64,000 nucleotides of DNA, from NCBI GenBank assembly GCA_012295275.1, contig CM022679.1:10106001-10170000 (forward strand). Direction: 5' to 3'. Every line of letters starts with the position of its first letter. Position 1 is the stretch's first letter. A program made the position numbers and the translations under genes. Shown piece by piece: positions 3,619 to 62,576 of the stretch. Below the pieces are notes generated by a model. That model saw only the letters and a program-made list of their open reading frames with translations. It ran no database searches and was not told the DNA's origin. This DNA comes from Chrysomallon squamiferum (Eukaryota; Animalia; Mollusca).

Positions 3619-3795
3619 CTTTCATTGGACTTCTCGTCATATGTAGTTGTAGTGGTGGTGGTGGGAAGACGTCTTCAGGTGTATGGGGTCCGTGGCCGTT
3701 GGGGACGTATCCCTGGCCACGATGAAGTAGGTCAGGCACTTGGGGCATTCCGACAGGCTTCGACTGCTGCATAGATGCTTGTTGTTTGGAGATGG
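3619..3795 (-). CDS. CASKIN: Caskin exon I (Pro-rich linker after SH3, phase 1 to 1)
   Basis: ttgcag|CC ATC...AAA G|gtacgt; 177 nt, GC-rich, open in the frame set by exon H: (T)ISKQQASMQQSKPVGMPQVPDLLHRGQGYVPNGHGPHTPEDVFPPPPLQLHMTRSPMK. No recognisable homology, so supported by phase and splice signals. Confidence 0.85.
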
Positions 3796-6402: not shown

Positions 6403-6514
6403 TTTGACTGTCCACAAGAACAACATGGTTGGATGGGAATAGGCCAGTTTTGGCCATTCTGCCTGGCTGAATTATCTGACCCTTCCAGATGCCATCAGGT
6501 TTCTGTTCCAGCAC
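6403..6514 (-). CDS. CASKIN: Caskin exon H (C-terminal half of SH3, phase 0 to 1)
   Basis: ctgcag|GTG CTG...CAA A|gtaagt; 112 nt; VLEQKPDGIWKGQIIQPGRMAKTGLFPSNHVVLVDSQ. Confidence 0.95.
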
Positions 6515-19497: not shown

Positions 19498-19592
19498 TGT
19501 AATGATATCCCCCTCTTTAAAAGAAAGACTCTGCGGGTCGTACAAGCTAAAGTAATCCTTGACAGCCCTGGCTTGACATGCAGAACTTGCTT
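19498..19592 (-). CDS. CASKIN: Caskin exon G (N-terminal half of SH3, phase 1 to 0)
   Basis: atttcag|AA GCA...ACA|gtaaga; 95 nt; (E)ASSACQARAVKDYFSLYDPQSLSFKEGDIIT (cf. Caskin EASAALQVRATKDY...GDIIT). Confidence 0.95.
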
Positions 19593-25450: not shown

Positions 25451-25812
25451 AAGAAAGATGTTTATATACAGAGAATGATTAATAGTTAAAAGATATACTA
25501 AATTTATTTAGCATTAAAAAACACATTAAAAAGGATAGAAGCCATTAACAATGACAACATAATTACCAAAGTCAACCTTATGTGAATGTGTATATATATA
25601 TGTATATATATATATATATATATACTTATTAAGTTTATTTAAATGAAAACCAGTATCATAAATGGGATTTCTTTTTTAATGAAACATCATCTATGTATTT
25701 GAAATTTAACTAAAAAAAAAAAAAAAATAAAAAAAGAAATAATATTTTTAAAACTGTCTAACACGTCACATCAAAAATTAAGTGACTAAAAAAAATGTAC
25801 ATCAGAGCTTAC

Positions 25813-25888
25813 CTGGCACGCCCTGCCCCACACACGCACAACCCACACAGTCCTTCCCCCCAAGACACTGTGGCAGGCAGAACTTCAT
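25813..25888 (-). CDS. Candidate alternative first coding exon (Cys-rich N-terminus) joining exon G
   Basis: In-frame TGA 4 codons upstream; ATG...CCA G|gtaagc; MKFCLPQCLGGKDCVGCACVGQGVP, then G+AA = E gives an in-frame join to exon G; GC-rich island. Confidence 0.6.
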
Positions 25889-26364
25889 ATCAGCACCTCA
25901 CTAATCCAAACTCCAAATCTTCCCCAAAAAAACAAGATTATCTAGATTATCTACATCTCCATCACTGTACCTCCTCCATAATTCCTTAATTTTTTTCTTT
26001 ATTTATTTTGTTTTTCTTTACATTTTTCATTTTTTTTCACTTTTTTTACATTTTGACTTCAGGCAGCCAGCTTGGTAAACAACAAGCTTCTTTTTCTTGT
26101 ACAGGAAGGAAGACCAAATAGCAAGGGCCAGATCAGAAATAGACTAGAAGTAAAAATATACTCTGCAACGACTCTACACAGACCCCCACAGTTTCACATA
26201 ATTGAGCTGGGCTTGTTTGTCAAGACATTGTTTTTCCAGGTATGAGATGATGAATGCTGAAGAAGAAAAAGATGTTGATTTTTTTTTTTTTTTTTTTTTT
26301 ACGCGAGAGCAATAGTTCGTTCACTAAGCAGTAGTGGTTTGCTCATCAGAAACAACACTTTGTC

Positions 26365-26712: not shown

Positions 26713-28125
26713 GTGTTCTTGTGCTAAACAGACATGCATTAAATTAGTATTAAATTAGTTTAATTAAATATATTACAACAAATCTGCCTGCTTTATTTGC
26801 ACTGAATAACTTGTTATTTTTCTGTCTCTATATAAGCTTGGGTATTTTTCACAAACAGAAGAGAAAAAATGACTTATAGGCCAACATTTTGCATTATTAA
26901 TTCTGAAAATGGTCTCGTATTCTGATAAGCTTTACAACATTGCAGACATCTACAAACAACATTAAGATGACAACTGCCATGAACAGAAAGTTAAAAAAGA
27001 AAAATGATGATTTATCACATCTGAATAAACCATTAGATATTTACAAGACCCCCCAAAAAAAGCAAAGACTCTAGAACTTGACCATTATCTGAAGCAATTA
27101 AAACAACTTTAATCTTTCAGGAACAAAAATGGGTTTTTGGGGGATAGGCTATAATTAAAAGTGTTTCTGTTTGAGTGCAGCTATCTTCGAGTGAGGTAGG
27201 GAATCCAAGTGAAATGTTTGTTAAAACAACACCTCTAACACGTCGAGCAGTTTGATAAGCACTTTGGGCTAATTATTACCTCGTCAGACGTAATGAGCAA
27301 TCTCCCGTTTCTCGTTAAGTGCTTGATTGCAACCCTCTCAGGTGTGAGCAGACAGGTAAAAATAGCTTGTACCTTTTCAACAGATACAAATGCACTTACA
27401 TGTGCACACACACACACACACACACAAAATAAAGAGCAATTCAGATGTTTCTAAAATAAAAAGTTTGAAAATTCAAAATTGTCCATTTGGTCTACATTTT
27501 TAAAGTATTTTTTCTCTAGGTTTAGTCTCACAGAATACTTGATACTACAAGTATTATTAAAAAATCTGCCTTCATGTCTACAAAAAAAAAAAAAAAAATT
27601 ACCTAGAGGACAGAATTTTCCAAAACATGATATGTTTTTTCTTTGATCAAAACTTCAAACATTTACAGAAATATTACATGAACTATTTTGAAATTACACA
27701 TTACATCACAATTTTGAAATAACAAAATGAAAATGTACTGCCATCACAATATTAAATTACTATTATTTATTATAAACTTAAGAATTTGTAATATCCATCT
27801 TAAACGTGACAGCATGTACCGTGTAGTTTGATATACAATCCAGAATACAGCAGTAATGGGAAAGAACCAAAATGATACACCAAGAGACTTTACTCTTTAA
27901 GCAAGGAATCTAATACTGTTTACAGTCCCCACTCCCTATTATAAACTGTATTATAAAGTTGAGACATCTATTACATCTGGGTGTTAATAAAACATGCTAT
28001 TCAGTTAGACATAACAGTTCATAGAGAACAGTTCACAGAGTGCTGTTATTAAGAAGGATTATGACTGTAAGACTATCTTCAGGAACATTGTAATTATACA
28101 GCTAAAAATAAATAAATAAAAAATA

Positions 28126-41326: not shown

Positions 41327-41435
41327 CTTTTAAAATATGCTTCAGTTCTTTGGCCGCCTTGTTGGACGTGAACTTGTTCACAATGTCCAGCGCTGTCTGG
41401 TCGTAAGAGTTTGGCTTGTTTACATCAATGCCACA
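41327..41435 (-). CDS. CASKIN: Caskin exon F (last ankyrin repeat and linker, phase 0 to 1)
   Basis: ctttcag|TGT GGC...AAA G|gtaagt; 109 nt; CGIDVNKPNSYDQTALDIVNKFTSNKAAKELKHILK. Confidence 0.95.
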
Positions 41436-50027: not shown

Positions 50028-50154
50028 TTGAAAAAAAAAGCCAGATAAAAGGAAATGACTCAACTGTGTACTGAAGTAAGGGTTCATGTCGGTTGACTGG
50101 TGTGTGTGTGGTGTACACTCGTATTAACTAACACTTTGTTTCTCAATTCTTTCA

Positions 50155-51065
50155 GCGTGCCACTGGTTTAGCATGTAGTGTGCCACTGTTTAGAATGTAG
50201 CATGCCGCTGTTTAGAATGTAGCATGCCACTGTTTAGAATGTAGAATGCCGCTGTTTAGAATATAGCATGCCACTGTTTTGTATATAGTGTGCCACTGTT
50301 TAGAATACAGCATGCCACTGTTTAGAATATAGCATGCCGCTGTTTTGTATGTAGCGTGCCACTGTTTAGAATACAGCATGCCACTGTTTAGAATGTAGCA
50401 TGCCACTGTTTAGTATGTAGCGTGCCACTGTTTAGAATGCAGCGTGCCACTGTTTAGAATACAGAGTACCACTGTTTAGAATACAGAGTGCCACTGTTTA
50501 GAATACAGAGTGCCACTGTTTAGAATACAGCATGCCACTGTTTAGAATATAGCATGCCACTGTTTAGAATGTAGCATGCCACTGTTTAGAATACAACATG
50601 CCACTGTTTAGAATATAGCATGCCACTGTTTAGAATATAGCATGCCACTGTTTAGAATGTAGCATGCCGCTGTTTAGAATATAGAGTGCCACTGTTTAGA
50701 ATATAGAGTGCCACTGTTTGAAATATAGTGTGCCACTGTTTAGTATGTAGTGTGCCACTGTTTAGAATGCAGCATGCCACTGTTTAGAATACAGCATGCC
50801 ACTGTTTAGAATACAGCATGCCACTGTTTAGAATATAGCATGCCACTGTTTAAAATATAGCATGCCGCTGTTTAGAATGTAGCATGCCACTGTTTAGAAT
50901 ACAGCATGCCACTGTTTAGAATGTAGCATGCTATTGTTTAGAATATAGCATGCCACTGTTTAAAATATATCATGCCACTGTTTAGAATACAGCATGCCAC
51001 TGTTTAGAATACAGCATGCCACTGTTTAGAATATAGCATGCCACTGTTTAGAATACAACATGCAC
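50155..51065. repeat. Homogeneous 22-bp minisatellite, ~41 copies
   Basis: Unit gccactgtttagaatatagcat. Confidence 0.97.
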
Positions 51066-54744: not shown

Positions 54745-54853
54745 GTCAAGCAGTAGTCTAACAACTTCTGTTTTGCCGTACAGAGCAGCTTCATGTAAAC
54801 ATGTTCCTTTTAAAGTCGCCCGATTTATGTCCATTCCAACCTGTAGCAGCAAC
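54745..54853 (-). CDS. CASKIN: Caskin exon E (ankyrin repeat, phase 2 to 0)
   Basis: gttacag|G TTG...GAC|gtaagt; 109 nt; [36 protein letters not shown], close to Caskin [21 protein letters not shown]. Confidence 0.96.
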
Positions 54854-57179: not shown

Positions 57180-57310
57180 GTAATGATGTCAGCGTGGCCA
57201 TTTTTGGCGGCCAGGTGAAGACAGGTGGTTTGACTGTTGTCTGTGAGATCCTTCTCATTGACCTCCAGGAGTCTGAGACACAGGTTGTTTCTCAACAGCA
57301 GCTCCACAAC
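57180..57310 (-). CDS. CASKIN: Caskin exon D (ankyrin repeat, phase 0 to 2)
   Basis: acccag|GTT GTG...ATT AC|gtaggt; 131 nt; [43 protein letters not shown](T). Confidence 0.95.
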
Positions 57311-58804: not shown

Positions 58805-58900
58805 CCTGTATCGTCCAAATTCACAGCCAAGATCTAGAGGGGTTTTATTTTCTTTGTTGGCCACTGTGGGATCTCCATGATGTAACAGCAACAAGTTAGC
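58805..58900 (-). CDS. CASKIN: Caskin exon C (ankyrin repeat, phase 0 to 0)
   Basis: tttcag|GCT...AGG|gtaaaa; 96 nt; ANLLLLHHGDPTVANKENKTPLDLGCEFGRYR (cf. Caskin KTPLDLACEFGR). Confidence 0.95.
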
Positions 58901-60618: not shown

Positions 60619-60764
60619 CACATCAAAATTTCCATGCTGACAGGCAAGATGCATGGGCGTGTCTCCATTCTGTGCGTGCAGGTTGACAGGTGACCCGTAC
60701 TGTAGTAGAATGTGAACTGGTTCCGACTTGCCCTGCCAGGCTGCATAGTGCAGAGGAATCATAC
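60619..60764 (-). CDS. CASKIN: Caskin exon B (ankyrin repeats, phase 1 to 0)
   Basis: ttttactag|GT ATG ATT...GAT GTG|gtcagt; 146 nt; GMIPLHYAAWQGKSEPVHILLQYGSPVNLHAQNGDTPMHLACQHGNFDV; PLHYAAWQG is characteristic of Caskin. Confidence 0.95.
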
Positions 60765-62478: not shown

Positions 62479-62576
62479 CTTTTTCATCTCTGATTTCAGT
62501 GGAAGCACCATTTTCAAGAAGCAACCTCATCACCTCAGTGTTACTCATAAGAGCAGCTTGATGTAGAGCTGACATT
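62479..62576 (-). CDS. CASKIN: Caskin-family protein, coding exon A (ankyrin repeat; first exon inside window, phase 2 to 1)
   Basis: tttttcag|A ATG TCA...GAA AAA G|gtaaat; 98 nt; xMSALHQAALMSNTEVMRLLLENGASTEIRDEKG, matching Caskin [34 protein letters not shown] (recalled human CASKIN1). Confidence 0.93.

What the first reader, a model, noticed from the sequence alone, without database searches (positions are those of the whole stretch)
25813..26260. MKFCLPQCLGGKDCVGCACVGQGVP: best-supported alternative first exon, replacing all ankyrin repeats
Seen: near-consensus donor CAG|gtaagc, upstream in-frame stop, five Cys in 19 residues, exact phase-1 join giving ...GVP-E-ASSACQARAVKDY with an intact SH3. 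Non-repetitive sequence continues upstream to about 26260. Its start resembles the spliced MKNCFQCG of the 50010 unit. Inference: a palmitoylated (or metal-binding) SH3-first isoform.
Basis: partly seen in the sequence, partly recalled or inferred. Interest (0 to 1): 0.75.

Follow-up and report, generated by a model that had tools for sequence, protein, structure and literature searches.

The report
Ankyrin-less caskin with cysteine-rich start
Inside a long intron of a snail's gene for the nerve-cell scaffold protein caskin lies a short cysteine-rich coding stretch that is conserved in other snails and in clams; it likely starts a shortened caskin without its ankyrin repeats, probably tied to membranes by an attached fatty acid, a design known from other synaptic scaffolds.

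Summary
The feature is real. The host is a gastropod caskin gene (ankyrin repeats, SH3; 83-96% identical to Gigantopelta aegis caskin). The 76-nt coding segment 25888-25813 joins the SH3 exon in phase 1 without stops. The sequence signals alone are weak: 5 of 12 strong donors in this intron pass the same test. Homology settles it. Database caskin models of three gastropods and three clams begin with the same motif (7-10 of the first 11 residues identical) joined at the same point. A profile of homologue N-termini picks only this segment among 3921 window peptides. No spliced RNA was seen here; one RNA contig reads through the donor. The transcription start is unknown. Palmitoylation of Cys4/Cys8 is the likeliest function (about 0.6, untested). 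A four-cysteine metal site is not conserved in bivalves. The likeness to the 50010 unit is no support. The design parallels PSD-95alpha, GRIP1b and Gab1beta. My paper searches found no description for caskin. The scan's notes hold no caskin finding, only similar start exons in other genes.

The parts
25813..25888 (-). Coding part of the alternative start exon, 25 codons + 1 nt, MKFCLPQCLGGKDCVGCACVGQGVP
   Evidence: homologues; profile test
25807..25812 (-). Splice donor gtaagc (phase 1)
25898..25903 (-). Two in-frame stops (TAG TGA) three codons above the ATG
25889..26274 (-). Putative 5' leader, upper end uncertain; 8 upstream ATGs whose short frames all end by 25951
   Evidence: RNA contigs of runs X1-X3 lie on parts of it, up to 26265 where the tool cut them
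19498..19592 (-). First SH3 exon, acceptor shared by the ankyrin-bearing and ankyrin-less forms
6403..6514 (-). Second SH3 exon
3619..3795 (-). Next exon (proline-rich linker); SAM exons lie beyond the window
41327..41435 (-). Last ankyrin-region exon, whose phase-1 donor competes for the same acceptor
54745..54853 (-). Ankyrin exon (absent from the short form)
57180..57310 (-). Ankyrin exon (absent from the short form)
58805..58900 (-). Ankyrin exon (absent from the short form)
60619..60764 (-). Ankyrin exon (absent from the short form)
62479..62576 (-). Ankyrin exon (absent from the short form); earlier exons lie beyond the window

Best explanation
The segment 25888-25813 is a conserved coding segment in the caskin intron just before the SH3 exon; it is likely the start exon of a caskin isoform that swaps all ankyrin repeats for a 25-residue tag whose Cys4 and Cys8 are probably S-palmitoylated, which would hold the scaffold at membranes. 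Shown: reading frame, splice phase, conservation, and the same join in other molluscs' gene models. Inferred: an internal promoter above about 26274 drives the transcript; it is spliced 25813>19592 here; the tag is acylated; and the membrane-held SH3-SAM-SAM-tail protein clusters partners there without the ankyrin-bound ones. About 0.93 for the isoform, times about 0.65 for acylation as its main job.
For: Homologous N-termini joined directly to the SH3 exon: Patella vulgata XP_055955086.1, Biomphalaria glabrata XP_055874761.1, Nucella lapillus KAL8610495.1 (each 10 of the first 11 residues identical); Potamilus KAK3586043.1, Sinanodonta KAL3876272.1, Mercenaria XP_053393505.1 (each 7 of 11). 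A profile from the three clams alone finds the segment as best of 3921 peptides, E 1.3e-4, next E 5.9. Conservation is concentrated in M-K-[FL]-C-[LI]-P-x-C, while the rest varies in length (23-35 residues) and sequence (alignment), as for a short N-terminal modification tag. Of 36 proteins joined to the SH3 exon without the last ankyrin exon, 13 carry this or the oyster two-Cys start, 4 another Cys-first start and 9 a polybasic start; 10 carry neither. Precedents read as passages: PSD-95alpha/SAP97alpha palmitoylated at Cys3/Cys5 instead of an L27 domain, and GRIP1b (PMC6365469); Gab1beta, which lacks its PH domain and is palmitoylated (PMC6176924). Human Caskin1 SH3 binds a lipid rather than peptides (PMC7830187 passages), and the snail SH3 keeps the non-canonical cleft.
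Against: No spliced read-out in this species: the one RNA contig that covers the donor (run X1, depth 4.7) runs on into the intron and no joint was listed. Palmitoylation has no consensus motif (PMC5992399 passage), and the basic residues that often follow acylated cysteines are few here (at most 1-2 per 10 residues in the six close homologues). Four cysteines kept in gastropods are more than an anchor needs. The homologues are gene models; their read support was not seen. The 26 of 36 count has no control against random N-termini and repeats related species.
Confidence: 0.6

Rival explanations
1. Same isoform, but the cysteines bind zinc (C4-x3-C8-x5-C14-x2-C17), as the cysteine/histidine N-terminus of SAP102 does, alone or as a switch against acylation.
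For: Four Cys at 4, 8, 14, 17 in the window, Patella and Biomphalaria; four in Nucella with one longer gap. SAP102 N-terminal cysteines bind zinc and are not palmitoylated; zinc chelation by the PSD-95 N-terminus impairs its palmitoylation (PMC10620527 passages).
Against: The three clams have three Cys and no His in the tag; oyster forms have two Cys. The window tag has no His.
Confidence: 0.13
2. Same isoform, but the tag is a protein-binding or dimerising motif, or mainly supplies a start codon, and the point is the loss of the ankyrin repeats.
For: Several unrelated start exons join the same SH3 exon in molluscs, 10 of 36 without a Cys or basic signature. Many arthropod hits have SAM domains only, so caskin forms without ankyrins are common.
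Against: A mere start codon would not keep K-[FL]-C-[LI]-P-x-C between snails and clams.
Confidence: 0.2
3. In this species the segment is not spliced to the SH3 exon: a relic or a chance intronic frame.
For: Only unspliced RNA contigs were seen; ATG-plus-donor candidates are common in this intron; the single Gigantopelta model has no such isoform.
Against: Intact frame, donor and phase, with 13 of the first 17 residues identical to limpet and pond-snail homologues; unique profile hit. The runs are shallow metatranscriptome contigs, in which unspliced RNA or DNA can occur.
Confidence: 0.07

Closest known systems
PSD-95alpha / SAP97alpha / PSD-93alpha versus the L27-bearing beta forms (PMC6365469, passages)
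   Same: An alternatively encoded short N-terminus with two cysteines in the first ten residues replaces a protein-interaction domain of a neuronal scaffold.
   Different: Different family (MAGUK). Spacing there is Cys3/Cys5, here Cys4/Cys8 plus further Cys. Here a whole ankyrin array (about 290 residues) is lost. Acylation is proven there and untested here.
GRIP1b and GRIP2b/pABP-L (PMC6365469, passages)
   Same: N-terminal splice variant of about 18-19 residues that is palmitoylated.
   Different: No folded domain is dropped there; PDZ scaffold.
Gab1beta (PMC6176924, passages)
   Same: Adaptor isoform lacking its N-terminal domain, held at membranes by N-terminal palmitoylated cysteines.
   Different: There the cysteines are the leftover last helix of the PH domain; here they come from a dedicated, conserved exon.
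SAP102 zinc-binding N-terminus (PMC10620527, passages)
   Same: Cysteine-rich N-terminus on a scaffold.
   Different: SAP102's motif is Cys- and His-rich and long; this tag has no His and four Cys only in gastropods.
Database isoforms of mollusc caskin, e.g. Patella caskin-2 isoform X4, Biomphalaria isoform X5
   Same: Same exon, same join: the isoform already exists as automatic gene models.
   Different: Named only as numbered isoforms; no description found in searches.

Membership tests
Caskin (host gene) | N-terminal ankyrin repeats followed by one SH3 domain | tested here: met
   Nine window exons match P0002 residues 65-421 at 83-96%; Pfam Ank and SH3_2 on P0002. The short isoform omits the repeats.
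Caskin (host gene) | Non-canonical SH3 cleft (K290 and R319 in human CASKIN2, PMC5020537 passages) | tested here: met
   Window SH3 has Lys at the first position and Ile, not Trp, at the position of R319, read from the ungapped line-up with mammalian caskin-2 hits.
Caskin (host gene) | Tandem SAM domains | tested here: inconclusive
   Beyond the window. Present in the nearest homologue and in the Patella short isoform, whose best solved matches are Caskin-1/2 SAM tandems.
Palmitoylated N-terminal scaffold isoforms (PSD-95alpha / GRIP1b type) | Alternative exon encodes a distinct short N-terminus | tested here: met
   by homology and frame, not by RNA of this species.
Palmitoylated N-terminal scaffold isoforms (PSD-95alpha / GRIP1b type) | Conserved cysteines within the first ten residues | tested here: met
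   Cys4 and Cys8 in the window and in 5 of the 6 close homologues; 7 and 11 in Nucella, whose model has three extra residues in front.
Palmitoylated N-terminal scaffold isoforms (PSD-95alpha / GRIP1b type) | Demonstrated S-acylation and Cys-dependent membrane targeting | not testable with these tools
   Needs acyl-biotin exchange and localisation.
SAP102-type zinc-binding N-terminus | Cys- and His-rich motif with a conserved set of four ligands | tested here: not met
   No His in the window tag; four Cys in 3 of the 6 close homologues (gastropods), three in the clams.
SAP102-type zinc-binding N-terminus | Measured zinc binding | not testable with these tools
   Needs a peptide assay.
Alternative first exon (strict sense) | Own transcription start, with no spliced exon above it | tested here: inconclusive
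   Contigs of X2 and X3 run to 26265, past the AG at 26257, so they are not spliced there, but contigs cannot show a start.
Alternative first exon (strict sense) | Spliced junction seen in RNA | tested here: inconclusive
   No joint; one shallow contig reads through the donor; only the exon's own side was laid.

The most novel reading that the evidence does not exclude
Caskin in molluscs and their relatives carries a set of alternative start exons that all splice onto the SH3 exon and encode different membrane tags (two-cysteine acyl, cysteine plus basic, polybasic), turning the ankyrin scaffold into a membrane-anchored protein whose lipid-sensing SH3 sits next to the bilayer, in a layout like the Src head; in snails the four-cysteine tag may switch between zinc and palmitate.
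Probability: 0.3. Interest if true: 0.6.

Novelty: new variant of a known kind. Interest (0 to 1): 0.38.

Why it matters
Caskins are described as six ankyrin repeats, SH3, two SAM domains and a disordered tail (PMC6856520, PMC7830187, passages), and their SH3 has been called either vestigial or lipid-binding (PMC5020537, PMC7830187). A start exon kept by both snails and clams that puts a likely lipid anchor four residues ahead of that SH3 suggests the domain works at the membrane. It gives a small, testable tag in animals with well-studied neurons. The principle is known from MAGUKs, GRIP and Gab1, and the isoform already sits unremarked in gene models, so the gain is a new conserved case, not a new kind of system.

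Tried and rejected
RNA: 4 runs listed, 3 on record as RNA, all from one study. On 25770-26360 they gave shallow contigs, no joint, and one read-through of the donor. Most depth was unrelated contigs on the A-rich repeat, and X4 covered only that repeat. No whole genome is held. Pfam finds nothing on the tag. A search of shorter proteins with the Nucella N-terminus gave 1 hit among 11 candidates, SH3 only. The 130 new representatives at 50% identity held no homologous tag; 28 had an SH3, none directly after a short start. An oyster-only profile does not find the window segment and the seven-bivalve profile ranks it first only weakly (E 2.4), so homology of the oyster M-L-C-V-P-L-C start is likely but unproven. 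The tag was not seen in listed members for Mytilus, scallops, Dreissena, Mya, cephalopods, Lingula or nemerteans; lists are capped (15 of 364 and 15 of 17 in two clusters), so this is not absence. 21 other alternative N-termini found no match below E 0.1 in the window. AlphaFold on 9 sequences gave pLDDT about 30 for the tag and says nothing on metal binding. ESM Atlas gave no usable hit for the Patella tag. Use as an internal cassette after the last ankyrin exon via the AG at 26257 would hit a stop after 27 residues, so it is rejected as a coding route. The Drosophila caskin paper (PMC3486645) was not held; I rely only on PMC5020537's remark that the fly form differs in domain make-up. No supplements were read; isoform tables in genome papers could mention this form.

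Full report
Observation. On the minus strand an ATG at 25888 opens 25 codons plus one base to CAG|gtaagc at 25813. Two in-frame stops lie three codons upstream, and Cys stand at 4, 8, 14, 17 and 19. The acceptor at 19592 begins with two bases that complete Glu, so the join is in phase, and the chain with the next two exons has no stop.

Host gene. A 40-residue stretch around the SH3 exon found one protein among 3 candidates, caskin-2-like of the snail Gigantopelta aegis, at 94%. Nine window exons match it at 83-96% over residues 65-421. Pfam gives it ankyrin repeats, SH3 and two SAM domains. The window is therefore inferred to come from a related gastropod. The candidate lies in the 21.7-kb intron between the last ankyrin-region exon (donor 41327, phase 1) and the SH3 exon, so a transcript starting at it would lack residues 1-293 of the long form.

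Chance. Of 12 donors with at least 8 of 9 consensus matches in this intron, 5 have an in-frame ATG after a stop in phase 1; at 7 matches it is 16 of 53.

Conservation. A search with residues 294-640 of the Gigantopelta protein listed the best 120 of 1449 hits, and members of 20 clusters were then read. Of 271 stored proteins, 197 had the SH3; 150 of these reach it through the last ankyrin exon, 36 through something else, and 11 start inside it. Six of the 36 begin with the window's motif and join at the same residue: Patella vulgata isoform X4, Biomphalaria glabrata isoform X5 and Nucella lapillus (10 of the first 11 residues identical), and the clams Potamilus, Sinanodonta and Mercenaria (7 of 11). 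Seven proteins from four oyster species begin M-L-C-V-P-L-C or M-L-C-V-C at the same join. A profile of ten such N-termini, without the window sequence, scored the candidate 26.4 bits (E 1.6e-6) among 3921 six-frame peptides; the next scored 6.1 and the best in 20 shuffled windows 10.5. The three clams alone gave 19.8 bits (E 1.3e-4). The oyster-only profile missed it. These homologues are gene models. That RefSeq isoform models usually rest on RNA reads is recalled knowledge; I did not see their reads. The gastropod-bivalve split is Cambrian (recalled).

RNA. Three RNA runs of one study and one run of unknown kind hold part of the stretch. Laid on 25770-26360, run X1 gave a contig from 25985 to 25788 that crosses the donor unspliced; X2 and X3 gave contigs from 26265 down to 26076 and 26113; no joint was listed. 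This neither shows nor refutes the junction: depth is 3-10, and unspliced RNA or DNA can be present. It counts mildly against. The X2 and X3 contigs include the pyrimidine tract before the AG at 26257, so they are not spliced there; the true 5' end is unknown.

Mechanism. Conservation is confined to the first eight to eleven residues, with Cys4 and Cys8 shared by all six close homologues, a third Cys at 14 in five of them (18 in Nucella), and a fourth only in gastropods. Short cysteine-bearing N-termini from alternative exons are palmitoylated in PSD-95alpha, SAP97alpha and GRIP1b (PMC6365469, passages), and Gab1beta loses its PH domain and is held at membranes by N-terminal palmitoylation (PMC6176924, passages). 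Other start segments at the same caskin join look like membrane tags too: 9 polybasic and 4 other Cys-first among the 36, against 10 with neither (no control, related species repeated). The SH3 that follows keeps the non-canonical cleft of human CASKIN2, and the human Caskin1 SH3 binds lysophosphatidic acid (PMC7830187, passages). Caskin SAM tandems oligomerise (PMC4994250, passages). I therefore favour an acylated, membrane-held SH3-SAM-SAM form, at about 0.6 overall; acylation, targeting and clustering are all inferred. Zinc binding has a precedent in SAP102 (PMC10620527, passages), but a four-ligand set is not conserved in bivalves (0.13). A protein-binding or start-only role gets 0.2, and no use in this species 0.07.

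The 50010 unit. Its frame has another ATG 20 codons higher, 2 of 3 strong donors in that intron have a phase-0 ATG frame, and none of 21 other alternative N-termini matches it. Short forms that start at the 41435-type exon do exist in Patella, Lingula, oysters, scallop and Biomphalaria, so such an exon may exist here, but 50010 is unproven and lends nothing to this finding.

Literature and earlier notes. Searches for caskin with isoform and domain terms (5 papers), palmitoyl (21 papers, 20 listed), Drosophila terms (20 of 112 listed), mollusc (3 papers), short-isoform terms (20 of 488 listed, none with caskin) and gastropod terms (15 of 1118 listed, none with caskin) showed no title or abstract start on an ankyrin-less or acylated caskin. 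In PMC6856520 the words isoform, splice and palmit do not occur. Most subscription papers are outside the library. The scan's notes hold nothing near this place and nothing on caskin; three notes describe similar start exons in UBA1 and Trio, unchecked here.

Verdict. A real, conserved alternative start exon of mollusc caskin; a new variant of a known design; interest 0.38.

Noticed in passing
window 26228-25951, minus strand: Eight upstream ATGs in the putative leader; four are followed at once by a stop and all frames end before the main ATG. Background is 90 of 1337 minus-strand ATGs (post hoc P about 0.001). Possible translational control, or an effect of A-rich sequence.
   Followed up: partly
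window 26270-26257 and 27450-27150, minus strand: A strong acceptor-like tract ends at 26257. About 1 kb above lies a CpG-richer patch (7 CpG in 250 nt, second highest in the intron) with a TGACG site at 27282 and a donor-like GAG|gtaata at 27280: a possible promoter or non-coding first exon for this isoform.
   Followed up: partly
window 19711-19703, minus strand: A pyrimidine tract followed by cagag|gtaagt, a donor scoring 12.3 on the gene's own matrix, 117 nt above the SH3 acceptor; possible recursive splice site or end of another exon.
   Followed up: no
window 55800-55560, minus strand: CpG observed/expected 1.07 against 0.28 for the window; may be another internal promoter. Potamilus and Mya have short forms starting at the next exon.
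   Followed up: partly
window 40300-39920, minus strand: GC-rich (48%) non-repetitive island with the most CpG in the intron and an open frame of over 100 codons ending without a clear in-phase donor.
   Followed up: partly
window 50063-50010, minus strand: The 50010 donor is preceded by a T-rich tract and YAG, so it also fits a recursive splice site (AG|GT); it sits next to a 41-copy 22-nt tandem array at 50154-51063.
   Followed up: partly
proteins P0047, P0122, P0205, P0239, P0252, P0257, P0188, P0007, P0003: Other caskin start segments with membrane-tag looks: adjacent Cys plus lysine-rich (P0047, unnamed), polybasic (limpet, cephalopod-like, Dreissena, Mya, the nemertean Tubulanus), M-L-C-L-x-K-R (pulmonates), and M-G-T-C at the previous exon (Patella X2).
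   Followed up: partly
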